A stretch of 64,000 nt of DNA from Candidatus Portnoybacteria bacterium (GCA_016208745.1 JACQXN010000020.1:9062-73061); one strand, 5' to 3'; positions 42,683 through 64,000 are shown, counted from the first letter of the stretch. Program-made: numbers and translations. Notes: generated by a model from the letters alone, not told the origin.

Positions 42683-43231
42683 ATGAAAACCTTTGGACTT
42701 TTTGTGTGGGAAATATTTAAGATAGTGATTATTTCTTTGGCGATCATTATCCCGATTCGTTATTTTTTGGTTCAGCCGTTTTTCGTCAAAGGCGCCTCAA
42801 TGGAGCCAAATTTTGAGGATAATCAGTATCTGCTAATTGATGAGATATCGTATAGGTTTAGAGAGCCGCAGAGAGGAGAAGTGGTAGTTTTTAAATACCC
42901 GCTTAAGCCATCGGAATTTTATATCAAAAGAATTATTGCTTTGCCCGGAGAATCAGTCCAGATAAAAGATAGCAAGATTTCTGTTTACAACAAAGAACAT
43001 CCGGATGGTTTTTCCCTAGATGAATCCAGCTACCTTGGGACTATTCCTATGTCTGACGAGCCCAAAATTACCTTAAAGGAAAATGAGTTTTTCGTTTTGG
43101 GCGACAATCGCCAAGCCAGTTATGATTCAAGGCGCTGGGGGCCTTTGCCCCGCGAAGATTTAATCGGGCGAGTTTGGATAAGAGTTTGGCCACTAGCCCA
43201 AGCGCAGGCGATCGGAGCGCCGGCATATTAA
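42683..43231 (+). CDS. lepB: Signal peptidase I
   Basis: Catalytic Ser box GASMEPNF, the Lys box YIKRIIALPGE, and GDNRQASYDSRRWG. Confidence 0.9.
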   Translation: MKTFGLFVWEIFKIVIISLAIIIPIRYFLVQPFFVKGASMEPNFEDNQYLLIDEISYRFREPQRGEVVVFKYPLKPSEFYIKRIIALPGESVQIKDSKISVYNKEHPDGFSLDESSYLGTIPMSDEPKITLKENEFFVLGDNRQASYDSRRWGPLPREDLIGRVWIRVWPLAQAQAIGAPAY

Positions 43232-46159: not shown

Positions 46160-46200
46160 CACTTTTATTTTTCGGCATATCCCTTAGTGAATTTTTTAAA

Positions 46201-46390: not shown

Positions 46391-46423
46391 TATTAAAAAT
46401 GCAGAGGCCTGAACTCTAGATTT

Positions 46424-46816
46424 ATGTTGGAAATCACCAATCTTACAAGGCATAAGATATATGGACGGGAATTAATAGAGGTAGCTCAAAAAGTTTTAAA
46501 AATTGTTGGCAGCGAAAATCTTAAAGAGATTAGCCTGGTTTTCGTTGACGAGAAAAAGATTCAGGAAATCAATAAAAAATACCGCCGTAAAAATAAGCCG
46601 ACTGATGTTTTAAGCTTTGAGGGTTTAAATGAAGTTTTCATTTGTCCTCAGGTAGTCGCAAAACAAGCGCGAGAGCTTGGAGTTAGTTTTGAAAGTGAAT
46701 TGATGAGAGTTTTGGTTCATGGTATATTACATTTAATAGGGCATGACCACGAAAAAAGCGCGAAAGAAGCGGAGAAGATGAGAAAAATAGAAGAGAAAAT
46801 TTTGAGACAGGATTAA
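46424..46816 (+). CDS. ybeY: rRNA maturation endoribonuclease YbeY
   Basis: Zinc motif HGILHLIGHDHE. Confidence 0.9.
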   Translation: MLEITNLTRHKIYGRELIEVAQKVLKIVGSENLKEISLVFVDEKKIQEINKKYRRKNKPTDVLSFEGLNEVFICPQVVAKQARELGVSFESELMRVLVHGILHLIGHDHEKSAKEAEKMRKIEEKILRQD

Positions 46817-46875
46817 TGATGGTAAGCTAATTTTTTAATTTCTTCGCCCACTAAGATAGGCGGGCTGAAATTTTT

Positions 46876-48141: not shown

Positions 48142-48437
48142 AATTTTTAATTAACCTAATTATTCTAATTTCTAATCAAATCCCAAAATCCCAATACCTA
48201 ATTTAATTTTAAAACAGGGATATCCGGTATTTTATTAGAAATTGGAATTTGGGAATTATTTAGGTCAATTAGAAATTAGGTTAATTAGAAATTCTCCTCC
48301 TGCCTCTTGACAGCTTTCGCCCTTTTGACCTATCCTGATATAATCTTTACATAAAGAAAAATTTCTCAATTTTTTCAAAATCTTTCCCTTCGACAAGCTC
48401 GGGGCAAACTAAGCCCGGGGTATAATTATAAAATATT

Positions 48438-49568
48438 ATGGCGCAAATTAAACCAAACATAGAAACATTTGCTAAAATAAAAGTAGTGGGAGTTGGCGGC
48501 GGCGGCGGCAATGCGGTTTCGCGAATGGCCGATTGCAAAATTCAAGGCGTGGAATTAATTGCTATTAATGCCGACGCGCAGGATTTGCATAGCTGTCTTG
48601 CTCCTCAAAAAGTTCTTATCGGAAAAAATTTAACCAGAGGTCTTGGCGCGGGAATGAATCCAGACATCGGCCGCCAGGCAGCTGAAGAAAACCGCGATGA
48701 AATCCACGAAGTTGTTAAAGGCGCGGATTTGGTTTTTGTTACCTATGGTTTGGGCGGCGGTGTTGGCACAGGAGCCGGGCCGGTGGTGGCCGAAGCAGCC
48801 AGAGATGCAAGCGCTTTAACTGTTGGCGTTGTTACCAGGCCTTTTTCTTTTGAAGGAAATCAGAGGTCTCGTTTAGCTGAAGAGGGCTTAAAGTCGCTGG
48901 CTGATAAGGTTGATGCTTTAATCACTATCCCCAATGACAAACTTCTTTCTATAATTGACCGCAACACTTCTTTATTGGATGCGTTCAAGGTGGTTGATGA
49001 TGTTTTGCGACAAGGCGTTCAGGGGATTTCCGATATAATCGTTACGCCCGGAATTGTTAATGTTGACTTTGCTGATTTGAAGGCGATATTGCAGGGAGCC
49101 GGCTCCGCGCTTATGGGCATTGGATTTGGTTCGGGCGACGATAGAGCAGCCGAAGCCGCGCGTCAGGCAGTAAATTCTCCTTTGCTTGAGGCTTCAATTG
49201 AGGGGGCAAGGGGAGTCGTGTTTAATGTTAGCGGCGGTTCTGATTTAACAATGGCTGAAATCAACGAAGCAGCTAAAATTATTACAGATGCTATTGACCC
49301 GCAGGCCAAAGTCATTTTTGGCGCGGTGACAGATGATAAATTAAAGAAAGGCGAAATAAAGATAACGGTTATTGCGGCTGGTTTTGGCGAACGCCAGGCC
49401 AAAAAAGAGGAAGCGACAACGCGTCTGCCGCTTGATGAAAGAATGATGTCTGCGGCAGCAAAAACTAAAAAACAGCCCGCTTTCACCACATCTCAGGTGA
49501 ATCCTACAGAAGGTCAGGAAGAAGACGAATGGGATATACCGGCTTTTATTAGGAAGAAGATGAAATAA
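48438..49568 (+). CDS. ftsZ: Cell division GTPase FtsZ
   Basis: Tubulin signature GVGGGGGNAV, a T7 loop and a C-terminal tail. Confidence 0.95.
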   Translation: MAQIKPNIETFAKIKVVGVGGGGGNAVSRMADCKIQGVELIAINADAQDLHSCLAPQKVLIGKNLTRGLGAGMNPDIGRQAAEENRDEIHEVVKGADLVFVTYGLGGGVGTGAGPVVAEAARDASALTVGVVTRPFSFEGNQRSRLAEEGLKSLADKVDALITIPNDKLLSIIDRNTSLLDAFKVVDDVLRQGVQGISDIIVTPGIVNVDFADLKAILQGAGSALMGIGFGSGDDRAAEAARQAVNSPLLEASIEGARGVVFNVSGGSDLTMAEINEAAKIITDAIDPQAKVIFGAVTDDKLKKGEIKITVIAAGFGERQAKKEEATTRLPLDERMMSAAAKTKKQPAFTTSQVNPTEGQEEDEWDIPAFIRKKMK

Positions 49569-51393: not shown

Positions 51394-52749
51394 ATGAAAA
51401 AAATTTATTTAATTCCAATTTATATCCTCTGTGTAAGCCTAATCTTTTCGCCGCTTAATTTCTTGTTGGCGGCCGATAAAGTTGATTTGGCCGGATACGC
51501 AATGAGCCGTTTGAGCGGTCTGTCTTTTGGCTTGTTTAATCAAGACCAAAATCAGTCAGAAGAACTAATCTTGTTAGACGGGGATATCTCTGAAGAATTT
51601 TCCTTGCTTTCGCCCGGCGCGCCATTTGGCCCCAATCTTATTAAAAATCCCTCGCTGGAGACAGCCGGCCTTTTAAGCGGTTTGCCGGAGTTTTGGTCCC
51701 ACGGAAGTTGGGACAAAAATAATCCAGTTCCAAGCTACCCGGTTTCTGGATTTGACGAAGAAAGAGCGGTTAGGATAGATATTGATAAATACGTTGGCGG
51801 AGACAGCAAATGGTATTTTGAAGACGTGGAGATTGCCGCTGGCAAGCATTATCTTTTTTCGGATTCATTTAAGTCTACAATTCCCAGCGTTTTAACTGCC
51901 AGATTCCTTTTAGCCGATAATACTTATCGATATTTTGATGTTGCTAATTTGCCTGCTTCATTTATTTGGCAGACAGCCTCGCAAATGATAACCGCGCCTT
52001 ATAACGCAAAATCGCTGACAATTTTCCATTCAATAAGAGGTAATGGTTCGTTGACTACTGATAACTTTTCTTTAAGAGAAATACCGGTCAGCGGCGGATT
52101 TTCTCAAGGTTTTGTTTCTTTGGATTTTGATGATGGTTGGGCGCTTACCTATAAAAACGCTTTGCCGATTTTAAACAAAGCGGGTCTAAAAAGCACGCAG
52201 AGCATAATCAGCGGTAGCATAAAAGATTGGCATTATGTTAATAAATCTCAGATTTTAGATATGCAAAATTCCGGACACGAAATTGCTTCGCATACAAAAA
52301 CGCACGCAGACTTAACTCGATTTTCAGCGAGCCGGGTGAAAGATGAAGTAGCCGGCTCAAAGAAAGCTTTATTATCGCTTGGCGTGGAGGCAATCAATTC
52401 ATTTGTGTATGCTCACGGAAAATACAATAACCAAGCAGAGGAAGCCGTAAAGGATGCTGGCTTCATAAATGCAAGAACCATTGATATTGGTTACAATACA
52501 AAAACATCCAATCCATATTTATTGAAAAGTCAGGTAATCGCATTAAACACTAGTTTTGATGAAGTAAAATTCTGGATTGACAGAGCGATTGCCGATAAAA
52601 CTTGGGTGATTTTGGTTTTTCATCAGATAGATTATAGCGGTCAAACATATAGCGCTACCCCAGAAATGTTGCAGCAAATTGTTGATTATCTAGTTTTACA
52701 GAATGTTTCGGTTTTGACCAATTCGCAAGGCGCGGCATTGCTTGAATAG
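51394..52749 (+). CDS. Secreted polysaccharide deacetylase (NodB homology) with an N-terminal CBM-like domain
   Basis: Signal peptide, a CBM-like segment (NLIKNPSLE...), then NodB motifs VSLDFDDGW and HEIASHTKTH. Confidence 0.75.
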   Translation: MKKIYLIPIYILCVSLIFSPLNFLLAADKVDLAGYAMSRLSGLSFGLFNQDQNQSEELILLDGDISEEFSLLSPGAPFGPNLIKNPSLETAGLLSGLPEFWSHGSWDKNNPVPSYPVSGFDEERAVRIDIDKYVGGDSKWYFEDVEIAAGKHYLFSDSFKSTIPSVLTARFLLADNTYRYFDVANLPASFIWQTASQMITAPYNAKSLTIFHSIRGNGSLTTDNFSLREIPVSGGFSQGFVSLDFDDGWALTYKNALPILNKAGLKSTQSIISGSIKDWHYVNKSQILDMQNSGHEIASHTKTHADLTRFSASRVKDEVAGSKKALLSLGVEAINSFVYAHGKYNNQAEEAVKDAGFINARTIDIGYNTKTSNPYLLKSQVIALNTSFDEVKFWIDRAIADKTWVILVFHQIDYSGQTYSATPEMLQQIVDYLVLQNVSVLTNSQGAALLE

Positions 52750-52779
52750 TTTTTGAATTGAATCATAGGCTCTGTTATT

Positions 52780-52849
52780 TGTCATTCCCGCGAAAGCGGG
52801 AATCCAGGCTCTTTTTTGAATCTAGATTCCCGCTTTCGCGGGAATGACA
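52780..52849. mobile_element. MITE of the TGTCATTCCCGC-TIR family (inverted pair of REP-like hairpins)
   Basis: TGTCATTCCCGCGAAAGCGGGAATCCAG...ATCTAGATTCCCGCTTTCGCGGGAATGACA. The two halves are reverse complements of each other. Confidence 0.6.
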
Positions 52850-52923
52850 AGACTGAGTATTATGTAATTCAAGCAGGAAGTTTTTTAAAAACAAAATAAA
52901 ACAAAAACATAAGGAGGCAAAAG

Positions 52924-54162
52924 ATGAAAGCAAGATTGAACGGTGTTTTTTTGGTGGCTTGTGCGGTTTTTTTCTTATTAACCTTAACCAGCGCGAGTTT
53001 CGCGTATGAACTGCCAAAGATGGTCGGCATTACCTGTGATGACGGGCAAGCCGATTCTTTGGAAAGAATGCTGTCTGTCACGATCCCTCTTGGGCTCAAG
53101 GTTGACCTTTTTTTGGTTACTGATTTCCTTGATGAAGGGGATTGGTCTATTGACTGGGCCAGGGCGAAAGAGCTCCAAACTCTTTATCCCGGCCTAGTTA
53201 AAATCAATAGTCACTCAAGGACTCATCCCTACTTTACGTCGCTTACCAATGCGCGATTGATTGATGAGACGCGCGGCTCAAAGCTTCAGTTCTCGGCTCA
53301 CGGCATTAATACAGATGACATGGGGATCGCCACGCCGTATGGCGACTTCAACCTTAAGGTCTTGTCTTTTGTGGCAAGATATTATCCTTGGCATCGGGCG
53401 GCTTGGGATTATGATGGTGATGGCGTGATCAACAAATGGCCTTTAAATGATTGTCAGTTGGAGATCTTTGAGCCGACACCGAATATGCCGGGCGAAGAAG
53501 TGATTGCCCGGGTCCAAGAAGACATAGCGCAAGGTGGACTTCCATTGCTTTTATTCCACGAATTTACGCCGGCTGGCGTTGTGCCGGGAGATTGGCAATA
53601 TCCAATTGAGGAATTCAAAAAAATTGTAAATTGGATTGCCGCAAACAGTGACACGATTAAATCTGTCACGATTTCGGAGGCACTGCATCTAACCGACGCC
53701 CCAAATTTGGTGAAAAACTATTCTTTTACTAACCGGAATGTTAATGGTTGGGCGAAGAATTGGTCGCGGAGCGGCGCGGGAGTTACGATCAATACGGCTC
53801 ACCAGGGCAATTTTCCTGAATTTACAAACAGCTTGCGAATTGTCGGTGGTTCTGTGGAGCGCAAAGCCTGGAACGATCAGGTGCCAGTGGATGAGGGCTC
53901 CGAATACATTATCAAGATGTATCAGAGCTGCCAGAATTGGGTCGCGGGCGGTTGGTGCGTCTGGGTTGATGAATTTAACTTAGACGGATATTATATTGGC
54001 GGCCAACGGTTAGGAGGCAACTACTGGAACTTCGTTGGCTGGCGGTATTATCAATATCAGCCTTCACCCGGAACCGCCAAAGCTTCTATCCAACCTTATG
54101 TAGAGGCGGGCAGTCGGTTGACTCTGTTCGTTGATTCAGTGGAGATGAGGAAGCTGCCATAG
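52924..54162 (+). CDS. Secreted polysaccharide deacetylase (NodB) with a C-terminal CBM-like domain; paralogue A
   Basis: Signal peptide, NodB motifs (ITCDDGQAD, NSHSRTHP), and a C-terminal CBM-like domain (NLVKNYSFTN...FVDSVEMRKL). Confidence 0.75.
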   Translation: MKARLNGVFLVACAVFFLLTLTSASFAYELPKMVGITCDDGQADSLERMLSVTIPLGLKVDLFLVTDFLDEGDWSIDWARAKELQTLYPGLVKINSHSRTHPYFTSLTNARLIDETRGSKLQFSAHGINTDDMGIATPYGDFNLKVLSFVARYYPWHRAAWDYDGDGVINKWPLNDCQLEIFEPTPNMPGEEVIARVQEDIAQGGLPLLLFHEFTPAGVVPGDWQYPIEEFKKIVNWIAANSDTIKSVTISEALHLTDAPNLVKNYSFTNRNVNGWAKNWSRSGAGVTINTAHQGNFPEFTNSLRIVGGSVERKAWNDQVPVDEGSEYIIKMYQSCQNWVAGGWCVWVDEFNLDGYYIGGQRLGGNYWNFVGWRYYQYQPSPGTAKASIQPYVEAGSRLTLFVDSVEMRKLP

Positions 54163-54257
54163 ATAATTATTTCCCCCTTTATAAAAGGGGGATTCAGGGG
54201 GATTTTTAAAATCCCTCCCAGCCTCCTTTTTTCAAGGGAGGAGTAAGAAAACAAATA

Positions 54258-54294
54258 CACCCGACGCAAAATAAAGCGTCGGGTTTTTAATTTT
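54258..54294 (+). terminator. Intrinsic terminator, CACCCGACGC-N8-GCGTCGGGT plus T5
   Basis: Perfect stem plus TTTTT. It is duplicated after the next paralogue at 55685-55718. Confidence 0.6.
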
Positions 54295-54397
54295 AGCAGC
54301 ACAAAAAACTTGACAACATTATTGTTGTGTGTTAGATTGGTTGATTCAAAGAGTGAGGAGAAATTCCTTAAAAACAAAACAAAAACGGAGGTAAAAA

Positions 54398-55621
54398 ATG
54401 GAAACAAGAAAGGTAGTAAGTATTTGGATGATTATTTTAGCGGTAACTTTTATGGTAACCGCGAATTCGGCCGCTTATGAGCCGCCGGCCAAGTGTACAA
54501 TCTTTTTTGATGATGGTCAGAGGTCAATTTATGACATCGCCTTGCCTATAATGGCGGCGAGAAACCTTAAGGCCGTAATTTGCCCTAGGGCCGATTGGAT
54601 GGGTTTGGGAGAAGGCTGGGTGATGAACTGGGAAGAGGTCTCGACTCTGAAGACGCAATATAAGTGGGAAGTTACCAGCCATGGAATAGACCATCCAGAT
54701 TTCACCACATTGTCAGACCCGGATCTGGAATGGCAGATGATAGGTTCCAAGGATGCATTTGCCGACCACAATATTATTGTTAGGGGCATCGCAACGCCTT
54801 TTGGTGCTTACAATGGCAAGGTTTTGTCGGCTATCGCCAGAAACTATTTTTGGCATCGCACAGCAGACGCAGGGGTGGATTCTTGGCCCTATAATGACTA
54901 TATGCTTAAGGTTATAGAGCCAAAAAGGGACACGCCGCCTGAAGATGTAATTACGCAACTTCAGGACGCCTTTGCTCAAGGCCAATGGCCTAAGCTTTTG
55001 TTTCACAATCTCGTGGATGGGGTGCCGTTGGATTATCAATACAACTCGGCGGACTTCGCCCAGATTATGGACTTTATCCAAGCAGAGAGAGACCGGGGAG
55101 CCGTTAAGGTTGTGACGGTTACGCAAGGTTTGAGGTTGCCTGCTGGCAACAACTTGGTGCCAAACAGCAGCTTTGAGAATTTAAAACCCAACGGTTGGCC
55201 AAAAAATTGGTGGCTGAATGATGGGGCTGATTCAAGCAAAGTCTTCTTGGACAACGCTAATCACGGTAATTTTCCAAAGCCGAAAAACTCCATCAAGATT
55301 ATTGGTGATGCTCTGCCGCAAGGCATCCAATCAGCCAAAATCGCAGTCAGCAGTAATTCTGAGTATATCGTCAAGATGTTTCAGAATGTTCAAGATCTTG
55401 TTGCTGGTGGTTGGAGCGTCCATGTAGACGAATTTGACTCATCTGGCGCTTATATCGGGACTCGGTGCCTTGGCAACAACTGGGATAATTTCTTTGACTG
55501 CCGGTATTATGAATATCAGCCATCTGTCAAAGCCGTGAAAACGGCTATCATAATTTCAACTTGGGAAAACAGCGAGTTGACGCTACGTGTTGACTCGGTT
55601 GAATTCCGGAGATTAAATTAG
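54398..55621 (+). CDS. Secreted polysaccharide deacetylase (NodB) with a C-terminal CBM-like domain; paralogue B
   Basis: Same architecture as 52924..54162 (IFFDDGQRS, SHGIDHP, C-terminal ...VDSVEFRRLN). This is a tandem duplicate that includes the downstream repeat and terminator. Confidence 0.75.
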   Translation: METRKVVSIWMIILAVTFMVTANSAAYEPPAKCTIFFDDGQRSIYDIALPIMAARNLKAVICPRADWMGLGEGWVMNWEEVSTLKTQYKWEVTSHGIDHPDFTTLSDPDLEWQMIGSKDAFADHNIIVRGIATPFGAYNGKVLSAIARNYFWHRTADAGVDSWPYNDYMLKVIEPKRDTPPEDVITQLQDAFAQGQWPKLLFHNLVDGVPLDYQYNSADFAQIMDFIQAERDRGAVKVVTVTQGLRLPAGNNLVPNSSFENLKPNGWPKNWWLNDGADSSKVFLDNANHGNFPKPKNSIKIIGDALPQGIQSAKIAVSSNSEYIVKMFQNVQDLVAGGWSVHVDEFDSSGAYIGTRCLGNNWDNFFDCRYYEYQPSVKAVKTAIIISTWENSELTLRVDSVEFRRLN

Positions 55622-55768: not shown

Positions 55769-56240
55769 TTGACAGCATTTTACTATTTGCTAAACTAATA
55801 TAACGCCTTAAAAAGGCGCTAAAAAACCATAGATTAAAATTAGAAAACAAAATTAGAATTTAGATTTAAACCACCTACGGAGGGTAGCGAGAATCGTAAT
55901 GCAAGAGCCCGATAAGCTCACACATTACATACTGATTGACTAGAAGGGTGGTTTTTTTATTTTCTCGTCAAAAATTTCAAGTGTTAACGCAGAAATTTTT
56001 GTAACGAGAAAATAACCCCGCATTTATTCTTACCAAAGGGCAAGAAGACCAGTAAACGAAGGCGCAGGTCTCAAGGCCGGAGCCGTTTCGCGCAATAATA
56101 CAGAAATAGATAAACTTGGCTGGAATAAGTGCGGGGTTGAAAACAGAATTTATTGTCCGCATACCCGCCGTCGCCAAGGCTTTGGCGGGCAGGCGCGGGA
56201 GATTCTTCTCCGTCCGCAAATGCGGACGGAGAAGAATGAC
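55769..56240 (+). ncRNA. Copy A of a conserved promoter plus structured non-coding element of unknown class
   Basis: Promoter TTGACA-16-TAAACT, then hairpin H1 (AAACCACC...GGTGGTTT plus T-run), hairpin H2 (16-bp stem), a domain H3 closed by a 15-bp stem ACCCCGCAYTTATTC/GAATAAGTGCGGGGT, and a 17-bp perfect hairpin at 56195-56236. It is homologous to 62808-63205 with compensatory changes. Confidence 0.5.
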
Positions 56241-56548
56241 AGAAGAAAGTTAATCCAAATTTTAACATCCGATTGTTAATCTGGCGCATAGGGGGCGAAG
56301 TTCTATAAATAATTTTTTTATAAATCCCTCCCAACCTCCCCTAAAGGGGAGGAGTAAAAAATTCCCCTCCTTTAGGAGGGGTTAGGGGAGATTTAGTAAA
56401 AGGTCGACATTGCCTGCTTTCCGCTTTTAGCGGTTTTCTGCCAAAAGCAGGGCAGTGAACTAGCACATTTTAAAAATAAAGGCAGAAAACAGATATTAAC
56501 GAATTGCGGATTAACGAATTTTAACGCGTTAGTTCGTTAATTCATAAA

Positions 56549-57412
56549 ATGATACAAAAATCTATGAAAAAAGTTTTCGTTACCTTAACAGTTTTATCGT
56601 TAATGGTATTGACGGCGGCTCCTGCTTTGGCTGGTCATCGTCCTTCAAGACACCAAATGCCAGCTAATGACAGCGATATCACAATTAATATTGATAATGA
56701 GGCGACTGTTACCAACATCGTTTCTGTCGGAGCTTACACCGGCGGCAATACCTCTAAAGGCGATGACGGCGGCGACGGCGGCGACAGCGGCGAAGCAGAA
56801 GTTGAAGGAGCTAAAGGCACTGCCACTTCCGGCGACGGCGGCGACGGCGGCGACGGCGGCAATGGCGGCACAATCACCTCTGGTGATGCAGATGCGAGCG
56901 CCTATATTGCTAACGTAGTTAATACCAATTTGACTTCAGTTGATGCTTGCGGTTGCGAAGAAGGAGAAGAGGAAGATGGCTGTGGATGTGAAGATCCTTG
57001 CGGCTGTCAGTCTCGCTGCGGCGGCTCTCAACAAGGGGATGACTGTGGTTGCATTGATGACATCAAAGTTGACATAGAAAACAAAAAGACTGATGTTAAC
57101 AACAATGCAGGAGTTATGGCCGACACAGGTTTAAATGAATCCAAAGGCGATGACGGCGGCAATGGCGGCGACAGCGGCGAAGCAGAAGTTGAAGACCAAG
57201 ACAAAGACAGAGACAACAGATGGCATCGCGGCGGCTGCAATACTTGCGGCAGTGATTCAGAAGACAGCGAATGCTGCCCTGAAGCCACTTCAGGTGATGC
57301 AGGCGATGGCGGCGACGGCGGCAATGGTGGTGAAATCACCAGCGGCGCAGCTGCGGCTACAGCCAAAGTATTTAATCTGGTTAACACCACTGTTACCAGA
57401 GTTCGCAGATAA
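56549..57412 (+). CDS. Secreted Gly/Asp/Cys-rich repeat protein
   Basis: Signal peptide, two internal repeats (SKGDDGGxGGDSGEAEVE...TSGDAxxxAxxxNxVNTxxT), and a CGC-rich metal-binding-like segment. The antisense ORFs are spurious. Confidence 0.6.
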   Translation: MIQKSMKKVFVTLTVLSLMVLTAAPALAGHRPSRHQMPANDSDITINIDNEATVTNIVSVGAYTGGNTSKGDDGGDGGDSGEAEVEGAKGTATSGDGGDGGDGGNGGTITSGDADASAYIANVVNTNLTSVDACGCEEGEEEDGCGCEDPCGCQSRCGGSQQGDDCGCIDDIKVDIENKKTDVNNNAGVMADTGLNESKGDDGGNGGDSGEAEVEDQDKDRDNRWHRGGCNTCGSDSEDSECCPEATSGDAGDGGDGGNGGEITSGAAAATAKVFNLVNTTVTRVRR

Positions 57413-57737
57413 CTATTTTTTGCGAAACGAGCAGGAGAAGCTTTCGGGCTTCTCCTCTCGGATAAGCTCTTAATTTATTTCCCCCTTTTTAAAGGGGGAT
57501 AAAGGGGGATTTAAAAAGACAAATCTAAATCCACCCCTCCCCTCCTTTAAAAAGGAGGGGAGGAATATCGATTGATAGCTTATGCGAGGGAAAAATGCCA
57601 GAATTTCTAATTACTCCGCCCAAGGCGGATCCGCCTCTGGCGGATAATTCAATCCCAATGCCCAATGTCAAGATTTAAAAATTAGACATTTGGGAACTAA
57701 ATATTTTATTGGAAATTAGGAATTATTTAAGAAATTT

Positions 57738-58346
57738 ATGGAGGTAAAGACGAGAAAAATTTTAAAAGTTATTTTACTTTTTTCATTAGTTTTGCCTCTG
57801 TCAGCCCAAGCGGCGTTGTTTGACGATTTTGTTAGCGGGATTGAAGATTGGGTTTCTGAACAAACAGGCAGTCAAACAAATAGTTCGGGCAATGTCCAGA
57901 TAAAAAACGAAGTAAAAGTTGAAGCTTCAACCGGCGGAAATTCTGTTGGTTCAGGCGGGGAAATTAAACAGGGCGAACAAAAAACCGAAATTGAAATAAA
58001 AAACATTATCAACGGACAGGAAATAGAGCCGGTTAATATTAATTCTTCAAGCAGCAAGGCAAAAGTGGAAATAAAAATAGAGGCCAATGATGGAAAAATT
58101 GAAGTTGAAAGAGAAATTGAAGTTGATTCGGAAAAAAGCGAGCAGAATTACCAGATTAATGCGGATAATCAAAATTCCCAAGATGATGCAAGCTCGCAAG
58201 AGTCTGCTGGCGCAGGCACAGATAGCGGCGTAGAAACGGAAAAGGAAAATATATTGGAAAAAACCGCAACAACAACTTCGGATTTCTTTTCAGCGATTTT
58301 TGAAAGCATAAAATCTTTTTTTGAAAATATATTTAGTATTTTTTAG
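57738..58346 (+). CDS. Secreted hypothetical protein sharing the (S/T)GGNS motif
   Basis: Signal peptide with a cleavage site ...LSAQA; acidic with low complexity. Confidence 0.5.
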   Translation: MEVKTRKILKVILLFSLVLPLSAQAALFDDFVSGIEDWVSEQTGSQTNSSGNVQIKNEVKVEASTGGNSVGSGGEIKQGEQKTEIEIKNIINGQEIEPVNINSSSSKAKVEIKIEANDGKIEVEREIEVDSEKSEQNYQINADNQNSQDDASSQESAGAGTDSGVETEKENILEKTATTTSDFFSAIFESIKSFFENIFSIF

Positions 58347-58544
58347 ATTCACTGAATCATAAAGCGGGCATTTTTTGCCTCCCCTCCTCAGATGAGGAGG
58401 GGAATTAAAGGGGTGGTGGTGACCTTAATAATTCAACACCCCACCCTACCCCTCCCCTCATCTGAGGGGAGGGAAGACGCCTATTTTATAATTCAATGTT
58501 AAGCCAATATTTTAATCTAACTCCGGAGGGAAGTTATATCGGTT

Positions 58545-61349
58545 ATGAAAGCCAAACAGAGCAGGAGGGGAGATAATTGTTTTTTAACTAATTTAACTCG
58601 GGGAAAACAGAAAAACTTTATTTTAATTCCCTTACTGGTTATCAGTTTGGTGGTTTTTAATTTTCCCGCCATATCGGTTTTAGCCGAAGAAGTCCCGACT
58701 GACGCGCCAGCAGACACAACTTTAAGCCAAGATGCGCCAGCGCCTGCAGAAACTCCTGCGCCAACGGAAAATCCTGCTCCGCCGGAAGATGTGGTTATTG
58801 ACACCGGGGACGCCAATGGCGGCATTGAGGTTGAAAACTCTGTTAACACCAATATCGCCCAGCTTGGCGATCCGGCAGAAAGCCAGACAGACTGGTCAGA
58901 GCTTGAAGGAGAAGTCCAAGGACAGGCTGATGAAGCCGCTCAAACAGAGGCTGAAGAAACCGGTGAAACTGAAACTCAAGAGACCGCAGAAACTTTAGGC
59001 GACAATCCTCCAGCCGAGCCAGAAGAAGAATTGGCTCAAGGCGTTGACAATAGCAATGACGAGGAAAATAATGACGGCCAAAACACACTCGATATTACAA
59101 ATGATAATCAGGCTGATGTTGGAAACGACGTTGTTGGAGTCGGCTCAACCGGCGACAATCAAGCAGAGGGCGAAGCTTGCGACGTTGATATTAATACCGG
59201 CGCTGTCAATTTATACACCTATTTAATAAATATCGTTAACACCAATATTTTTGCCTCTGATTTCTCCCAGTTTTTGTTAAATCTTTTTGAGGGTTTGCAA
59301 GGCGATATTGATTTATCCAGCGAAATTGCTTCTTCGGCAGAAGGATGCCTAGGCGATGATTGCATAGACAATATTAATATCACCAATAATAACAACGGCA
59401 CAACGACCAACGATGTTTTGCTTGACGGCTCAAGCGGGGGAAACACCGCGCAAAGCAATGGCGGATCGGCAACTATTAACACCGGCGATGTTAATGTGGT
59501 GGCCAATGTTTTAAATATCTTAAACTCCAATATCGTTGGCGCAAACTGGACTCAATTTATCATCAATGTTTTTGGCGATTGGATGGGCGATTTGGTTTTG
59601 CCCGGCAAGGACCAGATGCAGGATCAATTTGGCAATAGCGGCTCTGCCTGCTGCGGCGATTTGTCCATTACCAATTCAAATCAAGGCCAGATAATAAATG
59701 ATGTTAGCGTTATTTCAGACACCGGTTTAAACACAACGCAAGGCGATGGCGGCTCAATTAACACCGGCGACGCGCAAGCGGATGTTAATGTTTTCAATAT
59801 CGCCAATACCAATATAACCGGCAATAATTTCTTTTTGATGAAGGTTAATAATTTTGGCGACTGGAACGGCAGTATTTTCAGTCTGCCGCCCGGATTTTTC
59901 ATTAGCCAAGACGGAATGGGCTTTGAAATTATAAACGCTGGTTCAAGCAGCGGCGTGGGAATTTCTGGCAGCGACTTAAATATCACCAACAATAACGCCG
60001 GCGCGATTATAAACAGAGTAATCATCAATGCCTTTACCGGCGGAAACACCGCTCAATCATCAGGCGGCTCTGCTTCAATTAATACCGGCGATGCCCAAGC
60101 GATAGTCAATTTGATGAATATTATGAATACCAATATCGTGGGCAATAATTTCCTTTTGGGCATGGTTAATATTTTTGGCAACTGGCAGGGCAATTTGGCC
60201 TTTGGCCGGCCAGACAACTGGATTGGTTCCTCTGCCGCCACCCTGCCTGATCCGGTCAGCCCGGGCGGCGAAATTGCCTATAACCTGGCCTACACTAACA
60301 AAGGCAATGCCGATGCGAGCAATGTTTTGGTCAAAGCCGGCTTCAATAAGGGGATTGTGGAAATCTTAAATAGCGGCGGCGGCTTTATTGACGAAGCAGC
60401 CGGCGAAATTATCTGGAATGTTGGCGATTTATCAATCGGCGAAACCGGCGCAGTTTCCTATGCTGTCCAGGTTAAAGATGATGTGCAAAATGACGTAAAA
60501 ACAATTGATACCACTTCTTCCATTTCAAGCCTTGAGAGCGACAATAACAGCCAAGACAACACAGACACTCTTTCGGTGGCTCTTTATCGCGGCAGTTCTT
60601 TGGGCGCTTTGGTTGGCGGGCCAAACGAAACTTTGCCGAATATGAAATTAACTCAAGCCAACAATGCTTATGATGGCGCCTGGCAAGGTGGCAGCATTAG
60701 TTTCTCTACCAAGCTTTTTAACGATAGTTCGGGCTCTTCTTATGACACGATTCTTTACAATAACATCCGATCAGTTTCTTCAACCGATATTCTAGACACC
60801 CAGCAATGGAATTTGGGCAAAGTTTTTCCCAATGAAGAGATAACAATTGATTTTGCCATTGTGGTTGGCGAAAATTTGCCGCCGGGCGAGTATCTAAGCT
60901 TTACCCAGGCGGCTGGCAAAGATGCTTCTGGCAACGCCAGCTATTCAACTATTGCTTCAAGCGTATTTAAAGTTGTAGAAGCTCCGGATACTGAAAATGT
61001 CGCGTCAGAAGAGGCAGCCGAGCTGAATGAAGAAGAGAATTCACAAAACAATATTGTGTCGGACATAAAAGATGTGGTTCAGGAAATATTAGCGCCTCTT
61101 AGACCAAAAACCATTAGCGCTTCGGATGAAAATGGGCCAGCAGTTGTTCGCGAAGTTTCAGCTTCAAACGAACAAGGTGGCGTTTTAGGGGATTTGCAAG
61201 AAGAGTCAAATAACAGACGCAGCTTAAATCTTTTTTCAGCGATTGGGTCTTTGGGCTGGTGGGGCTGGCTGATTATATTGGCTATCTTGGCAGCATTCTT
61301 GATTCTTCTGTTTTTGACAAAGAAAAGGAAAAAGGAAGAATCTTATTAG
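58545..61349 (+). CDS. Large cell-surface protein with four tandem ~60-aa repeats and a C-terminal TM anchor
   Basis: N-terminal TM/signal, an acidic Pro/Glu-rich linker, four copies of ...GGNTAQSxGGSAxINTGDxxAxVNxxNIxNTNIxGNNF..., and a C-terminal LGWWGWLIILAILAAFLILLFL-KKRKK anchor. Confidence 0.75.
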   Translation: MKAKQSRRGDNCFLTNLTRGKQKNFILIPLLVISLVVFNFPAISVLAEEVPTDAPADTTLSQDAPAPAETPAPTENPAPPEDVVIDTGDANGGIEVENSVNTNIAQLGDPAESQTDWSELEGEVQGQADEAAQTEAEETGETETQETAETLGDNPPAEPEEELAQGVDNSNDEENNDGQNTLDITNDNQADVGNDVVGVGSTGDNQAEGEACDVDINTGAVNLYTYLINIVNTNIFASDFSQFLLNLFEGLQGDIDLSSEIASSAEGCLGDDCIDNINITNNNNGTTTNDVLLDGSSGGNTAQSNGGSATINTGDVNVVANVLNILNSNIVGANWTQFIINVFGDWMGDLVLPGKDQMQDQFGNSGSACCGDLSITNSNQGQIINDVSVISDTGLNTTQGDGGSINTGDAQADVNVFNIANTNITGNNFFLMKVNNFGDWNGSIFSLPPGFFISQDGMGFEIINAGSSSGVGISGSDLNITNNNAGAIINRVIINAFTGGNTAQSSGGSASINTGDAQAIVNLMNIMNTNIVGNNFLLGMVNIFGNWQGNLAFGRPDNWIGSSAATLPDPVSPGGEIAYNLAYTNKGNADASNVLVKAGFNKGIVEILNSGGGFIDEAAGEIIWNVGDLSIGETGAVSYAVQVKDDVQNDVKTIDTTSSISSLESDNNSQDNTDTLSVALYRGSSLGALVGGPNETLPNMKLTQANNAYDGAWQGGSISFSTKLFNDSSGSSYDTILYNNIRSVSSTDILDTQQWNLGKVFPNEEITIDFAIVVGENLPPGEYLSFTQAAGKDASGNASYSTIASSVFKVVEAPDTENVASEEAAELNEEENSQNNIVSDIKDVVQEILAPLRPKTISASDENGPAVVREVSASNEQGGVLGDLQEESNNRRSLNLFSAIGSLGWWGWLIILAILAAFLILLFLTKKRKKEESY

Positions 61350-61691
61350 TTTTTTGAGGCTGAGTTTGTCTAATAATAACTTGATTAGCCACAAATCCTC
61401 CCTCGCCTCGCTTAAGCTCCGGCGAAGCGGGCCAGCCCTCCCCCGTATCAAGTACGGGGCAAGCTCTAAAGGGAGGGAGCAGGGATTATTCCCCTCCTTT
61501 AGGAGGGGTTAGGGGAGATTTAGATTGGTGTAAGAGTTAATTAATTTCAGGAACCATCGCAGATTACATTATTATTCATTAAACCCTAGGCTATTATTTG
61601 TTTGACAGGATTCCTTGAGGCGGTAAAATGATAAATAAACATCGCTTTTTTTGCAGCGGGCGAGTTTTAATAATTATTAAAACTATAAAAA

Positions 61692-62504
61692 ATGAATAAA
61701 AAATCGCTTCTCAATAATTTAATTGTTTTGCTGGCGGCCTTTGCTTTGCTTTTAAGCCCGGTTTTGGCTAAAAACGACAATGCCATAGAAGTTGATATTC
61801 CAGACCAAGATGGGATATATGACGTGCCCGGCCATCAGGAACTTAAACTAAGAGTTATTGTCCACAAAGAGAAACCGGCAAAAACCGATCCAGAGGCTTT
61901 GCAATCTTTTGTCTGCACTCTCTCCGATCCTGATTCTCTGTCATTTATTGGCGCAACCGGCTGGTATTTGGCAACAACAACACCTTTCGTTTATACCTTA
62001 AATCCAAGCAGTGTGCCCGCTTCCATTGGCGCCAGCAACTTGCCAAAAATAGCGGAAAATTCATTTAAGGTTTGGACGGATGCGATTGGCAATAAGGTGA
62101 CTATTTCAAGAAACCCGATAAACACTTTAATCGCCAAAAAAGCTCTTGATGGCAAAAATATTATTGCCTGGAACAGATTGTCAAAATCAATTTTAGGCGT
62201 TACCTACACTTGGTATTACACGAGCACCGGTTTAGTAGCGGAGATTGATACCATAATGAATAAAAGCGTTGCTTGGAGCTGGTCTAATCCGACAACCTGG
62301 CCCCTGCCCTATATTTGCGCTGATAAATATTCTTATGACGCGCAGAATATCCTAACTCATGAAATCGGCCATTGGTTTGGCCTGATTGATAGATATGAGA
62401 CTGATTATGCCGCAAACACAATGTATGGTTATGGTTCAAAAATGGAAACAAAGAAGGATACTCTAACTGAAGGCGATATTTTGGGGGTAGAGGCGATTTA
62501 TTAA
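61692..62504 (+). CDS. Secreted zincin-like metalloprotease
   Basis: Signal peptide and HEIGHWFGLID, which is HExxH followed by G, matrixin/metzincin-like. Confidence 0.6.
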   Translation: MNKKSLLNNLIVLLAAFALLLSPVLAKNDNAIEVDIPDQDGIYDVPGHQELKLRVIVHKEKPAKTDPEALQSFVCTLSDPDSLSFIGATGWYLATTTPFVYTLNPSSVPASIGASNLPKIAENSFKVWTDAIGNKVTISRNPINTLIAKKALDGKNIIAWNRLSKSILGVTYTWYYTSTGLVAEIDTIMNKSVAWSWSNPTTWPLPYICADKYSYDAQNILTHEIGHWFGLIDRYETDYAANTMYGYGSKMETKKDTLTEGDILGVEAIY

Positions 62505-62526
62505 AACAGAGAAGTATTTATTTCAA

Positions 62527-62566
62527 AAACAGTCCGTTCGTAAAGGCGATCGGGCTGTTTTTTATG
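62527..62566 (+). terminator. Intrinsic terminator downstream of the metalloprotease gene
   Basis: ACAGTCCG-N14-CGGGCTGT plus TTTTTT. Confidence 0.5.
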
Positions 62567-62807
62567 TCTTTTTTCCTCCTCTCAGACTTGCCCCGTTCAG
62601 CGGGGTGAAGGAGAGGTAGGGTGGGGTGTTGAAAAGACAAATTTTACAATAATTCCCTCTCCTCAGTTGAGGAGAGGGGAAGGGTGAGGTGATGTTTTCA
62701 AATCAACACCACCCCCAACCCCTCCTCATCTGAGGAGGGGAGGAATCATTTTAGGGTTTTCCACAGATTTCTCCACATTTGGTTCACTTTTCATAAACAG
62801 CGCGATT

Positions 62808-63205
62808 TTGACGCTGTTTTTTTGTTTGGTTAAACTGATATAACGGGCTGGAAAAAGCGAGATTTTTTTCATCTGAAATTAATCTTTGTTATTTTAGAAT
62901 GCGATTGGGACATGATTATTTTATTTTAATTTTTTCAATTAGTTAAAAAACCACCTAATTATCAATAACTATGCTGAGGGAAAAACCCAAAATTGCATTT
63001 ATAGTTAGCTGAAAAGAAAGGGTGGTTTTTATTTGTTTGTCAAAATTTTAGAACTCGCCGCAGCGAGCGATAAAAATTTTATAACAAACAAATAACCCCG
63101 CACTTATTCTTACCAAAGAGCAAGAATGTCAAAGAACAAAGGCGTAGCCGTTTCGTGCGATAAGACGGAAATAAGAATACTTGGCTGGAATAAGTGCGGG
63201 GTAAC
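62808..63205 (+). ncRNA. Copy B of the conserved promoter plus structured non-coding element
   Basis: Promoter TTGACG-17-TAAACT and H1/H2/H3 homologous to copy A. The H2 stem is TTTGTTTGT/ACAAACAAA where copy A has TTCTCGT/ACGAGAA, a compensatory change. Spurious ORFs are called over it. Confidence 0.5.
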
Positions 63206-63410
63206 TCCCGATAAATAATTGCTCTCTCTATCAGAAAGTCCTTGATAGGTGGGGGAAAAGGTCGAAAAGTGGCTTCCCTTGGTTCTGCAGAAACGGAGCT
63301 AAGGCGAGCCACTTTAAGTAAAAAATTAATAAATTAGTCAATTAACGAATTAAAGAATTAACGAATTAAATCCGTTAATCCGTTAATGCGTTAATAAATA
63401 ATAATTAATA

Positions 63411-64000
63411 TGAAGAAGATTATATTAAGTTTAAGCATTATCGCGGCGGCCGCGGCAGTGGTCATCGGCGTCACGACTTCATTTTTTTCCGACACCGAAA
63501 CTTCCAGCGGCAACACCTTTACCGCTGGCGACATTGATCTCCAGATTGATAATGAAAGTTATGTGACTAATGAAGACGGAATATTGGTTGCGAGCCCTAA
63601 TACGAGCTGGGATTTAGCAGATCTTACAATAGAAAAATTTTTTGATTTTGATGATCTAAAACCCGGCGACATTGGCGAGGATACAATTTCAATTCATATT
63701 GGCTCAAACGACGCATGGGTTTGCGCTGCGGCAAGAATTACCGCAGACGAAGATGTTACGTGTACTGAGCCAGAAGGCGATGACGATTCAAATTGCGCCG
63801 AGTCGGGCGCGGGGCTTGGAGAGTTAGATGAAGAAATAAATTTTGCATTTTGGGTAGACGATGGTGATAACGTGCTTGAGGATAATGAGGTTAGCTCTAT
63901 TTTTCTCGAAGGACCATTAAGCGGAATTGGCGCGCAGGGGCAAATTACCTTGGCGGATTTCGATGAATCGATTCTTCCAGACAAAGGTCCTATTCCGGGC
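63411..64000 (+). CDS. TasA/camelysin-like protein with a SipW-cognate-class signal peptide; 3' end truncated by the window edge
   Basis: MKKIILSLSIIAAAAAVVIGVTTSFFSDTETSSGNTFTAGDIDL matches the SipW-cognate N-terminal signature (FSDTETS...N.F.AG.LDL). No stop codon before the window ends. Confidence 0.7.

What the first reader, a model, noticed from the sequence alone, without database searches (positions are those of the whole stretch)
56549..64000. Cell-surface protein island: repeat proteins sharing an (S/T)GGN(T/S) / NTGD...NTNI module, a metzincin-like protease and a SipW-cognate (TasA-like) protein
Four consecutive + strand genes encode signal-peptide proteins:
- 56549, Gly/Asp/Cys-rich with CGC clusters.
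- 57738, acidic.
- 58545, 934 aa with four ~60-aa repeats and a C-terminal TM and KKRKK anchor.
- 63411, with an FSDTETSSGNTFTAGDIDL N-terminus that is typical of TasA/camelysin-type SipW substrates.

These flank a HEIGHWFGL zinc protease at 61692. Short motifs recur across the non-homologous proteins: YTGGNTS, STGGNS, FTGGNTAQS and SSGNTFTAG. This suggests a shared sorting or processing signal, possibly SipW-dependent. The island is bracketed and interspersed by the densest concentration of palindromic repeats in the window.
Basis: partly seen in the sequence, partly recalled or inferred. Interest (0 to 1): 0.6.

Follow-up and report, generated by a model that had tools for sequence, protein, structure and literature searches.

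The report
Three unrelated surface-protein units, juxtaposed
The "island" is three separate cell-surface gene sets sitting side by side in a tiny uncultured bacterium (Candidatus Portnoybacteria): a conserved three-gene set built from an undescribed ~70-residue beta module, a lone zinc protease, and the first gene of a TasA-like fibre locus. The recurring TGGNT motif is a turn inside that module, not a shared sorting signal.

Summary
All five genes and motifs exist as described. The palindrome enrichment is real.

- P5 (63410 to the window end) passes TIGR04088 (SipW-cognate signal, 32.7 bits against a cutoff of 19).
- In 6 of 6 related loci, tandem P5-like genes are followed by an archaeal-type SipW peptidase.
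- P1 to P4 score about 0 bits against that signal and carry ordinary signal peptides. A LepB-type peptidase lies at 42683.

**YTGGNTS, STGGNS and FTGGNTAQS are one turn of one homologous module.**
- The module is about 70 residues: NxNxAxVxN…TGxN…IxTGDA…NTNI.
- P1 has two copies, P2 has one, and P3 has a half copy plus four.
- A profile of the module finds only these three proteins in the six-frame window. It gives P5 0.9 bits.

**P1-P2-P3 is a conserved Patescibacteria gene set.** It appears in 10 loci, and the module occurs in about 2,800 50%-identity clusters. No Pfam family covers it and no significant PDB match was found. The AlphaFold2 model of the repeat region is confident (pLDDT 88).

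**The three units are not linked elsewhere.** The metzincin P4 (HExxHxxGxxD plus a Met-turn) has none of the other units nearby in 18 related loci.

My proposal, by inference: P3 is an anchored scaffold, and P1-type two-module proteins dock onto it.

The parts
56549..57412 (+). P1: secreted 287-aa protein with two copies of the beta module. Each copy is split by a Gly/Asp-rich insert, and the two are joined by a CGC-rich linker. It ends in ...NTTVTRVRR.
   Evidence: ORF. The module HMM gives E 8.2e-17 as four half-hits. The ortholog in L002 is 171 aa with two uninterrupted modules. The C-terminal TR(I/V)RR motif recurs in 7 loci.
57738..58346 (+). P2: secreted acidic 202-aa protein with one degenerate module (residues about 46-95) and a hydrophobic C-terminus, ...FFENIFSIF.
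   Evidence: ORF. Module HMM E 1.3e-5. Orthologs are 35-36% identical in L002 and L003. It is 100% identical to HY764_03525 of Candidatus Portnoybacteria.
58545..61349 (+). P3: 934-aa envelope-anchored protein. In order it has a signal peptide, a half module, an acidic disordered linker, four modules, two Ig-like (CLIPPER-type) domains, a disordered stalk, a TM helix and a basic tail.
   Evidence: There are 240 homologs, named ones all Patescibacteria, and most carry PF01345.
58791..58862 (+). N-terminal half module of P3 (VVIDTGDANGGIEVENSVNTNIAQ, residues 83-106).
   Evidence: The module HMM matches positions 35-59 with i-E 3e-5. It is conserved as IxTGDA…NxVNTN in 50 homologs. Its pLDDT is about 92 although it is flanked by disordered segments.
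59076..60182 (+). The four full beta modules of P3 (59076-59294, 59361-59579, 59652-59858, 59964-60182).
60216..60977 (+). Two Ig-like beta-sandwich domains of P3 (residues about 558-811), the CLIPPER/DUF11-type stalk.
   Evidence: DUF7927 scores 24 bits, below its cutoff. PF01345 and PF24346 are present in homologs. The AlphaFold2 strands have pLDDT above 90. Foldseek hits are to tandem Ig-like domains.
61257..61346 (+). C-terminal TM helix (WWGWLIILAILAAFLILLFL) and basic tail (TKKRKKEESY). There is no LPXTG motif.
   Evidence: TIGR01167 scores 10.7 against a cutoff of 15.9.
61692..62504 (+). P4: secreted 270-aa metzincin-type zinc protease. HEIGHWFGLID is at 62358-62390 and the Met-turn NTMYGYG is at 62415-62435.
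   Evidence: Pfam Matrixin scores 24.5 against a cutoff of 24. The motifs are at least 90% conserved in 33 family members. None of the other units lies near it in 18 long related loci.
63410..64000 (+). P5 (partial, 197 aa): a SipW-substrate-type, TasA-like N-terminus (MKKIILSLSIIAAAAAVVIGVTTSFFSDTETSSGNTFTAGDIDL) followed by an acidic domain.
   Evidence: TIGR04088 32.7 bits and PF12389 27.2 bits. A local profile of TasA-like N-termini gives 92.8 bits. Homologs in six Patescibacteria loci are 41-61% identical.
57480..57563 (.). Pair of polypyrimidine/polypurine palindromes after P1 (57480-57499 and 57536-57563). The same family follows P2 (58380-58403, 58450-58473), P3 (61488-61523) and P4 (62655-62678, 62719-62740), and precedes P1 (56335-56396).
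   Evidence: In related genomes P2 and P3 overlap or lie 12 nt or less apart. Here they are 198 nt apart with two palindromes between them.
55940..56145 (+). Copy 1 of a ~190-nt intergenic element with a 16-18-bp long-range stem, about 400 nt upstream of P1. Copy 2 is at 63018-63210, about 200 nt upstream of P5.
   Evidence: (D7, D11, I15, I16). The two copies are about 80% identical. They are the only copies in the window and none occurs in the related loci. No Rfam match.
42683..43231 (+). General bacterial-type signal peptidase I (LepB type), the likely processing enzyme for P1-P4.
   Evidence: TIGR02227 scores 143 bits against a cutoff of 47. TIGR02228 scores only 25 bits against a cutoff of 51.85.

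Best explanation
The region is the end of a cell-envelope neighbourhood in a Candidatus Portnoybacteria (Patescibacteria/CPR) genome. It contains three evolutionarily independent units lying next to each other.

**Unit A: P1, P2 and P3**
- This is a conserved three-gene set specific to Patescibacteria. Its products all contain the same ~70-residue all-beta module, NxNxAxVxNxVxVxAxTGxNxA…GxAxIxTGDAxAxxNVxNxxNTNI.
- The 'TGGNT' motif is the tight turn after the module's long first strand.
- All three proteins have ordinary Sec/AxA-type signal peptides. They are presumably cut by the LepB-type peptidase at 42683.
- P3 is held on the cell by a C-terminal TM helix and basic tail. It displays a half module plus four modules on a stalk of two Ig-like (CLIPPER-type) domains.
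- My inference: the free two-module protein P1 and the one-module protein P2 attach to the P3 module stack by like-with-like beta-sheet packing. P3 would then be a surface scaffold and the two-module unit a docking element that other genomes fuse to lectin-like cargo domains.

**Unit B: P4.** A stand-alone secreted metzincin.

**Unit C: P5.** The first of what is probably a tandem set of TasA-like, SipW-processed fibre subunits, with the SipW gene expected just beyond the window end.

The palindromes are a genome-wide REP-like or terminator-like family that has filled the intergenic gaps here.

**Shown:** gene content, module homology, conservation of the gene set, independence of the three units, and the signal type of each protein.

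**Inferred:** co-assembly of P1, P2 and P3; the presence of SipW in this genome; and fibre formation by P5.
For: **Module homology**
- The four repeats of P3 are recovered with domain scores of 66-75 bits. The same HMM, built only from repeats of the P3 family, hits P1 (E 8e-17) and P2 (E 1e-5) and nothing else in the six-frame window.
- The module is also visible at DNA level (D3, D8).

**Conservation**
- One search found 240 P3 homologs. Every source name that identifies a taxon is Patescibacteria or CPR.
- The module profile finds 2,844 representative proteins. The top 150 each have 4-6 module stretches.
- The same gene order, P1-like then P2-like then P3-like, occurs in 10 loci. P2 and P3 overlap or nearly abut in five of them.

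**Display on the envelope**
- P3-family C-termini alternate between a TM helix with a basic tail, LPATG, and a PG_binding_1 domain.
- A sortase gene is adjacent in two loci.

**Docking idea**
- The two-module unit is fused behind DUF642- or discoidin-like domains in L003 and L012.
- The half module at the P3 N-terminus has pLDDT about 92 although it is flanked by disorder.

**Signals**
- TIGR04088 hits only P5. The reciprocal HMM tests are, and hhalign gives 0.08%.
- The LepB-type peptidase is at 42683.

**Unit C**
- In 6 of 6 related loci, 2-4 tandem genes with a SipW-type signal precede a SipW scoring 100-119 bits on TIGR02228.
- TasA homologs in Patescibacteria are already reported (PMC9245690).

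**Independence**
- No loci centred on P5 homologs contain the module gene set. Two loci centred on P3 homologs were searched for P5-like proteins and had none; the gene tables of six more list no Peptidase_M73 or signal-peptidase family.
- 18 long loci with P4 homologs contain neither of the other units.
- In one Kaiserbacteria genome the two units sit on different contigs.
Against: - Co-assembly of P1, P2 and P3 rests on conserved gene order, the shared module and the fusion architectures. No complex model or experiment supports it.
- I could not inspect model coordinates. How the modules pack, and where the half module docks, is therefore inferred from confidence values only.
- One locus (L058) has a TasA-like gene (PF12389) and an LTD gene directly beside the module gene set. 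Some functional link between units A and C cannot be excluded.
- The ~190-nt element shared upstream of P1 and P5 could mean local co-regulation.
- No SipW was seen in this genome.
- Similarity of P5 to TasA stops after about 48 N-terminal residues.
Confidence: 0.72

Rival explanations
1. The recurring (S/T)GGN(T/S) and NTGD…NTNI motifs are a shared sorting or processing signal, possibly recognised by SipW, which unites otherwise non-homologous island proteins.
For: P5 really does have a SipW-type signal containing SSGNTFTAGD. The motifs look superficially alike. All the proteins are exported.
Against: - The motifs in P1-P3 are internal and repeated up to five times per protein. They sit in a 70-residue homologous module.
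- P1-P4 give no TIGR04088 hit at E<=1.
- They score 0 bits or less on a Patescibacteria TasA-N profile, against 92.8 bits for P5.
- The module HMM gives P5 0.9 bits, and aligns residues 41-55 rather than the SSGNT stretch.
- hhalign gives 0.08% probability.
- The module gene set occurs in eight other loci with no SipW or TasA gene in view.
Confidence: 0.03
2. P1, P2 and P3 are independent paralogous adhesins or binding proteins. They are clustered only because of tandem duplication. The module is itself a ligand-binding unit (for glycan or host surface), and the proteins do not assemble with one another.
For: - The P3 architecture, with a head, an Ig-like stalk and an anchor, matches fibrillar adhesins as described for CLIPPER proteins (PMC12617251).
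- CPR bacteria are epibionts rich in surface proteins (PMC11665869).
Against: - The three proteins are not simple duplicates. Each has its own conserved architecture and C-terminal motif across 10 loci (TRVRR for P1-like, a hydrophobic tail for P2-like).
- P2 and P3 overlap or abut in five loci, which suggests coupled expression.
- The conserved extra half module in P3 and the cargo fusions are easier to explain by module-module docking.
Confidence: 0.2
3. Unit A is a curli- or Fap-like functional amyloid system. P1 would be the polymerising subunit, P3 a membrane-anchored nucleator, and P2 a chaperone or cap.
For: - The only Foldseek PDB hits for the module stack are FapC and CsgA.
- The module is rich in N, G and T, with a GxN turn reminiscent of curlin repeats.
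- The small-subunit, helper and anchored-protein arrangement is analogous.
Against: - Those Foldseek hits are not significant (E 0.035 and 0.43, probability 0.03 or less, TM below 0.1).
- hhalign of the module against CsgA gives 0.1% probability.
- No Curlin_rpt Pfam hit.
- AlphaFold2 predicts a confident, closed monomeric fold for the four-module region.
Confidence: 0.08
4. The whole stretch is one co-regulated surface-remodelling island specific to this lineage. P4 would process P1-P3 or P5, and the shared ~190-nt upstream element would coordinate expression.
For: - All genes are on the same strand and all products are exported.
- The ~190-nt element is found only upstream of P1 and P5.
- L058 shows a TasA-like gene next to the module gene set.
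- A subtilisin gene abuts the P3 homolog in L057.
Against: - P4 homologs are never next to either unit in 18 long loci.
- The element is absent from all related loci and could equally be a mobile MITE-like repeat.
- Every gene is separated from the next by terminator-like palindromes.
Confidence: 0.1

Closest known systems
TasA/TapA/SipW biofilm-fibre operon of Bacillus (PF12389 Peptidase_M73; TIGR04088 cognate signal; TIGR02228 / NF046067 SipW)
   Same: P5 and its Patescibacteria homologs carry the SipW-type signal and the N-terminal segment that serves as donor strand in TasA. In related loci they lie in tandem next to an archaeal-type signal peptidase. The family's presence in Patescibacteria was already noted (PMC9245690).
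   Different: - Sequence similarity to TasA ends after about 48 residues.
- The mature parts are longer (about 300-575 aa), acidic and variable. Some carry SpaA_2, discoidin-like or beta-helix domains.
- Some SipW genes are fused to C-terminal domains that have their own internal SipW-type site.
- No SipW is visible in this window.
Fibrillar adhesins with CLIPPER (DUF11) stalks (PMC12617251)
   Same: P3 has a signal peptide, a distal head, Ig-like CLIPPER-type domains and an envelope anchor. Homologs are annotated as DUF11 proteins.
   Different: - The head is a stack of a half module plus four copies of an unannotated module, with a fixed copy number across the family.
- There are only two stalk domains.
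- The gene is always accompanied by two small proteins built from the same module.
Curli (CsgA/CsgB) and Fap functional amyloids
   Same: Asn/Gly-rich beta-strand-turn repeats. A small secreted subunit is encoded with a cell-associated partner. These are the top, though non-significant, Foldseek neighbours.
   Different: No sequence or profile similarity. The repeat is much longer (70 aa against about 22 aa). No outer-membrane secretion partners are present. The organism is presumably monoderm.
Metzincins with an Asp third ligand (snapalysin M7; matrixin M10)
   Same: P4 has HExxHxxGxxD and a downstream Met-turn. It reaches the Pfam Matrixin threshold.
   Different: The N-terminal 200 residues have no family match. 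There is no PDB relative by sequence. The best NCBIfam match (myxosortase-dependent metalloprotease) scores 37.8 bits against a cutoff of 250.

Membership tests
SipW-cognate signal proteins (TIGR04088) | N-terminal signal region matches TIGR04088 above the curated cutoff (P5) | tested here: met
   32.7 bits against a cutoff of 19, E 5.8e-8. A profile of 13 Patescibacteria homologs gives 92.8 bits.
SipW-cognate signal proteins (TIGR04088) | The same signal in P1, P2, P3 and P4 | tested here: not met
   No hit at E<=1. Scores are 0 bits or less on the local profile with filters off. hhalign of the module against the P5 family gives 0.08%.
TasA-SipW system | An archaeal-type signal peptidase (TIGR02228/SipW) encoded with the substrate | tested here: inconclusive
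   None is present in the window. There is no SGSMEP motif in six frames, and the only peptidase is LepB-type. The window ends inside P5, and attempts to extend it failed. In 6 of 6 related loci a SipW lies less than 2 kb downstream of the last TasA-like gene.
TasA/camelysin (PF12389) | Mature jelly-roll domain homologous to TasA | tested here: inconclusive
   The Pfam match covers only profile positions 6-53 of 196. The same is true in 11 of 13 homologs. hhalign to TasA aligns 48 N-terminal columns at 67% probability. No PDB sequence hit. No structure model was made for P5.
Metzincin zinc proteases | HExxHxxGxx(H/D) zinc site plus a Met-turn | tested here: met
   HEIGHWFGLID at residues 223-233 and NTMYGYG at 242-248. 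Both are at least 90% conserved in 33 homologs. Matrixin scores 24.5 against a cutoff of 24.
CLIPPER/DUF11 (PF01345) surface proteins | A PF01345-type domain above threshold, with a CnaA-like Ig fold | tested here: inconclusive
   The window's P3 hits only DUF7927, at 24 bits against a cutoff of 31. Most of the 120 listed homologs carry PF01345. AlphaFold2 gives two confident beta-sandwiches that match tandem Ig-like domains. Isopeptide residues were not examined.
LPXTG sortase substrates (TIGR01167) | LPXTG motif before the TM helix and basic tail | tested here: not met
   10.7 bits against a cutoff of 15.9. There is no LPXTG in the last 70 residues of P3. One homolog (P0106) has LPATG.
Curli/Fap functional amyloid repeats | Curlin-type repeats or a significant fold or profile match | tested here: not met
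   No Pfam hit. hhalign to CsgA gives 0.1%. Foldseek gives E 0.035 and 0.43 with probability 0.03 or less.
RTX beta-roll Ca-binding repeats | GGxGxDxUx nonapeptide repeats (PF00353) | tested here: not met

The most novel reading that the evidence does not exclude
P1, P2 and P3 form a previously undescribed, Patescibacteria-wide surface assembly system built from one new beta module. A membrane- or wall-anchored scaffold (P3, with a half module plus four modules) recruits small secreted proteins through a two-module docking unit. Those proteins are P1 and, in other genomes, the same unit fused to lectin-like cargo. P2 would act as an adaptor or cap. Functionally this would be a cohesin-dockerin-like or nucleated beta-stacking display system on the envelope of ultrasmall epibiotic bacteria.
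Probability: 0.25. Interest if true: 0.65.

Novelty: new variant of a known kind. Interest (0 to 1): 0.38.

Why it matters
Patescibacteria are a huge, mostly uncultured bacterial lineage. They live attached to other cells, so their surface proteins are central to their biology, yet most are unannotated.

This analysis removes a false lead: there is no common SipW-dependent signal across the island. It also confirms that this genome has an ordinary TasA-like locus of a type already reported for the phylum.

More usefully, it delimits a conserved three-gene surface set. That set is built on a ~70-residue module with no Pfam family and no solved structural relative, present in thousands of protein clusters. 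The module is a concrete target for domain annotation, for structural work, and for testing how these cells build or decorate their envelope.

Tried and rejected
**Extending the window past P5 to look for SipW (all failed)**
- The exact-protein look-up of P4 gave only a 1.2-kb contig.
- An exact 39-mer from the window end had no match in metagenome contigs.
- The look-up of P2 gave only 3.8-kb Logan contigs, although an 82-kb NCBI contig exists.

**Searches that gave nothing useful**
- A word-indexed search with a 49-sequence module alignment returned nothing. The exhaustive profile search replaced it.
- Foldseek of the full P3 model against PDB was dominated by generic Ig-like tandems and was uninformative for the module.
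- The afdb50 library was unavailable.
- Rfam on 51-64 kb gave only sub-threshold hairpin, miRNA-like hits.
- PDB sequence searches for P4, P5, the P5-family profile and the module profile found nothing significant.

**Ideas considered and rejected**
- Curlin homology.
- An RTX beta-roll.
- P3 as an LPXTG substrate.
- The peptidase at 42683 being SipW.
- P4 as a conserved partner of either neighbouring unit.


Full report
**1. Observation**

The five + strand ORFs exist essentially as described.
- P1, 56549-57412, 287 aa. It is Gly/Asp/Cys-rich with four CGC triplets.
- P2, 57738-58346, 202 aa, acidic.
- P3, 58545-61349, 934 aa.
- P4, 61692-62504, 270 aa, containing HEIGHWFGLID.
- P5 starts at 63410 and runs off the window end with 197 aa visible.

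Composition figures are and motif coordinates are. The palindrome claim also holds. Twelve of 30 perfect hairpins (stem at least 9 bp) lie in 54-64 kb. Nine of 15 CCCTCC…GGAGGG palindromes lie in 54-63 kb. They mostly sit just after stop codons.

**2. Organism and surroundings**

P2 is 100% identical to 'hypothetical protein HY764_03525 [Candidatus Portnoybacteria bacterium]' on an 82,099-bp contig. All named homologs of P3 and P5 are Patescibacteria/CPR.

Upstream lie envelope and division genes:
- LytR-CpsA-Psr (40053)
- a LepB-type signal peptidase I (42683-43231; TIGR02227 at 143 bits, TIGR02228 at only 25 bits)
- HisRS, FtsA and FtsZ
- a GT2 glycosyltransferase
- three polysaccharide deacetylases (51394-55621)

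**3. The recurring motif is part of a homologous module, not a signal**

An alignment of P3 with 49 homologs shows a half unit followed by four conserved units. The consensus is NxNxAxVxNxVxVxAxTGxNxA…GxAxIxTGDAxAxANVxNxxNTNIxGxNW…NxFGDWxG.

I built an HMM from 199 such units taken only from the P3 family and searched the six-frame translation of the whole window. It hit:
- P3, with five domains including residues 83-106;
- P1, at E 8.2e-17, as two modules each interrupted by a Gly/Asp-rich insert;
- P2, at E 1.3e-5, as one module;
- nothing else.

An eight-sequence alignment made only from window DNA shows the register directly. YTGGNTS, STGGNS and FTGGNTAQS all fall in the same TGxN turn. 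The similarity is visible even at DNA level (families D3 and D8).

P5's SSGNTFTAGD is different:
- the module HMM gives P5 0.9 bits, and aligns another stretch;
- profile-profile comparison of the module with the P5 family gives 0.08% probability.

Conversely, TIGR04088 hits only P5 at E<=1. A profile of 13 Patescibacteria TasA-like N-termini gives P5 92.8 bits and P1-P4 0 bits or less. By inspection, P1-P4 have ordinary n-h-c signal peptides ending in ALA, AQA, VLA and VLA.

**4. Unit A is a conserved gene set**

P3 has 240 detected homologs of about 800-1,100 aa, most carrying CLIPPER/DUF11 domains. The window-only module profile finds 2,844 representative proteins at E<=1e-3 among 1.84 billion. 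Of these, 1,661 are at E<=1e-10, and the best 150 each have 4-6 module stretches.

In 10 independent loci the P3-like gene is immediately preceded by small module proteins. The loci are the window, L002, L003/L004, L011, L012, L013, L014, L056, L057 and L058.
- One is a two-module P1-like protein, usually ending …NTN(I/V)TR(I/V)RR.
- In most loci there is also a one-module acidic P2-like protein with a hydrophobic C-terminus.

P2-like and P3-like genes overlap or lie 12 nt or less apart in L002, L003, L011, L013 and L056. In the window they are 198 nt apart with two palindromes between them.

P3-family C-termini vary between a TM helix with a basic tail, LPATG, and PG_binding_1 domains. A sortase gene is adjacent in two loci. 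This fits envelope display.

In L003 and L012 the two-module unit is fused behind DUF642- or discoidin-like domains.

No Pfam or NCBIfam model covers the module in 12 proteins tested. No PDB sequence matches its profile.

**5. Structure**

The AlphaFold2 model of full-length P3 has pLDDT 76.9. It shows confident all-beta repeats, two Ig-like sandwiches (residues about 558-811), a disordered acidic linker and stalk, and a C-terminal helix. The half module at 83-106 scores about 92 despite disordered flanks.

The cropped repeat region (residues 178-562) gives pLDDT 88.1 and pTM 0.82. Each module starts with a ~21-residue strand.

Comparison with solved structures:
- Foldseek gives no significant hit. 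The top entries are FapC (E 0.035) and CsgA (E 0.43) at negligible probability.
- hhalign to CsgA is negative.

The fold is therefore solenoid-like in flavour but has no close solved relative. I could not inspect the coordinates.

**6. Unit C: P5**

P5 passes TIGR04088 and PF12389, but only over the signal and N-terminal strand.

Six related loci each show 2-4 tandem genes with FFSDTETSxGN-type signals, followed by a peptidase. They come from Woese-, Taylor- and Kaiserbacteria, Paceibacterota, Parcubacteria and one MAG whose record is titled 'uncultured Gammaproteobacteria bacterium'. The peptidase has the SGSMEP motif. Three were tested and score 100-119 bits on TIGR02228 against a cutoff of 51.85.

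A TasA sequence, validated against 8AUR and 5OF1, aligns to the P5 family only over 48 N-terminal columns.

TasA homologs in Patescibacteria are already noted in PMC9245690. SipW in this genome is inferred, not seen.

**7. Unit B: P4**

HExxHxxGxxD and the TMYGYG Met-turn are conserved in 33 homologs. Matrixin just reaches its threshold. None of 18 long related loci has module, TasA-like or SipW genes within 8 kb.

**8. Are the units linked?**
- Loci centred on P5 homologs lack the module gene set. L002 and L003, centred on P3 homologs, had no P5-like ORF by BLAST, and the gene tables of six more such loci list no TasA-like or signal-peptidase family.
- In Kaiserbacteria GCA_020428795.1 the two units lie on different contigs.
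- The one exception is L058, where a PF12389 gene and an LTD gene sit divergently next to the gene set.
- In the window, a ~190-nt element with a long stem occurs only upstream of P1 and of P5.

I regard the juxtaposition as lineage-specific. Local co-regulation is not excluded.

**9. Mechanism and verdict**

Shown:
- three independent exported units;
- a homologous structural module that explains the motifs;
- a SipW-type signal on P5 only.

Inferred:
- P3 is an anchored scaffold. P1-type two-module proteins, and P2, dock onto it by module-module beta packing.
- P5 paralogs form SipW-processed fibres.
- The palindromes act as REP-like or terminator-like elements.

What remains is an ordinary TasA-like locus, an ordinary metzincin, and a widespread Patescibacteria surface gene set built on a domain with no Pfam or NCBIfam family. 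This last part is of moderate interest.

Noticed in passing
window 55940-56145 and 63018-63210: Two copies, about 80% identical, of a ~190-nt intergenic element with a 16-18-bp long-range stem (MFE -44.7 and -39.5 kcal/mol). One lies upstream of P1 and one upstream of P5. There are no other copies in the window or in the related loci, and no Rfam match. It could be a MITE-like repeat or a shared leader or regulatory region.
   Followed up: partly
window 17903-62740 (for example 21313, 22137, 27864, 36148, 54173, 55648, 56365, 57481, 58382, 61492, 62655): A genome-wide family of polypyrimidine/polypurine palindromes (CCCTCC-loop-GGAGGG), often in pairs just after stop codons. A 36-nt unit is 100% identical at 56361-56396 and 61488-61523. 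They are probably REP-like or terminator elements.
   Followed up: partly
window 52779-52850: A different, near-perfect 29-nt inverted repeat (TTGTCATTCCCGCGAAAGCGGGAATCCAG …) lies between the first and second deacetylase genes. It is not related to the CCCTCC family.
   Followed up: no
L005 10730-11986; L006 7801-8850; L008 11814-13496: The SipW-type peptidases in these loci are fused to long C-terminal extensions. The extensions contain a second TM segment and an internal SipW-type site (for example FYGDTETFSGN). This suggests self-processing fusions of peptidase and substrate.
   Followed up: no
L003 6456-7430 and 7505-8566; L012 3818-4984: The two-module unit typical of P1 is fused to the C-terminus of DUF642-, MAM- or discoidin-like domains. 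CC or CxC motifs precede each module.
   Followed up: partly
window 56950-57060 (P1 residues 134-170) and the Gly/Asp-rich inserts at about 56770-56880 and 57150-57340: Compared with its 171-aa ortholog in L002, P1 has an expanded Cys-rich linker (four CGC triplets) and GDGGDGG-type inserts inside both modules. This may be metal or Ca binding. One P3 homolog (P0001) carries a Cu-binding_MopE Pfam hit.
   Followed up: no
window 51394-55621: Three tandem polysaccharide deacetylase genes. The second and third are paralogs with a C-terminal CBM-like domain. Domains related to the first also flank TasA-like loci in L007 (3249-9440) and L008 (14839-18438).
   Followed up: partly
window 43328-49568 and L011 10267-14673: HisRS, FtsA and FtsZ lie within about 10 kb of the module gene set both in the window and in a Zambryskibacteria locus. 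This may be conserved synteny.
   Followed up: no
L057 7702-9609; L012 9137-9814; L014 8960-9505: A subtilisin-like (Peptidase_S8) gene overlaps the end of the P3 homolog in L057. Sortase genes are adjacent to the P3 homolog in L012 and L014. These are alternative processing or anchoring partners in other lineages.
   Followed up: no
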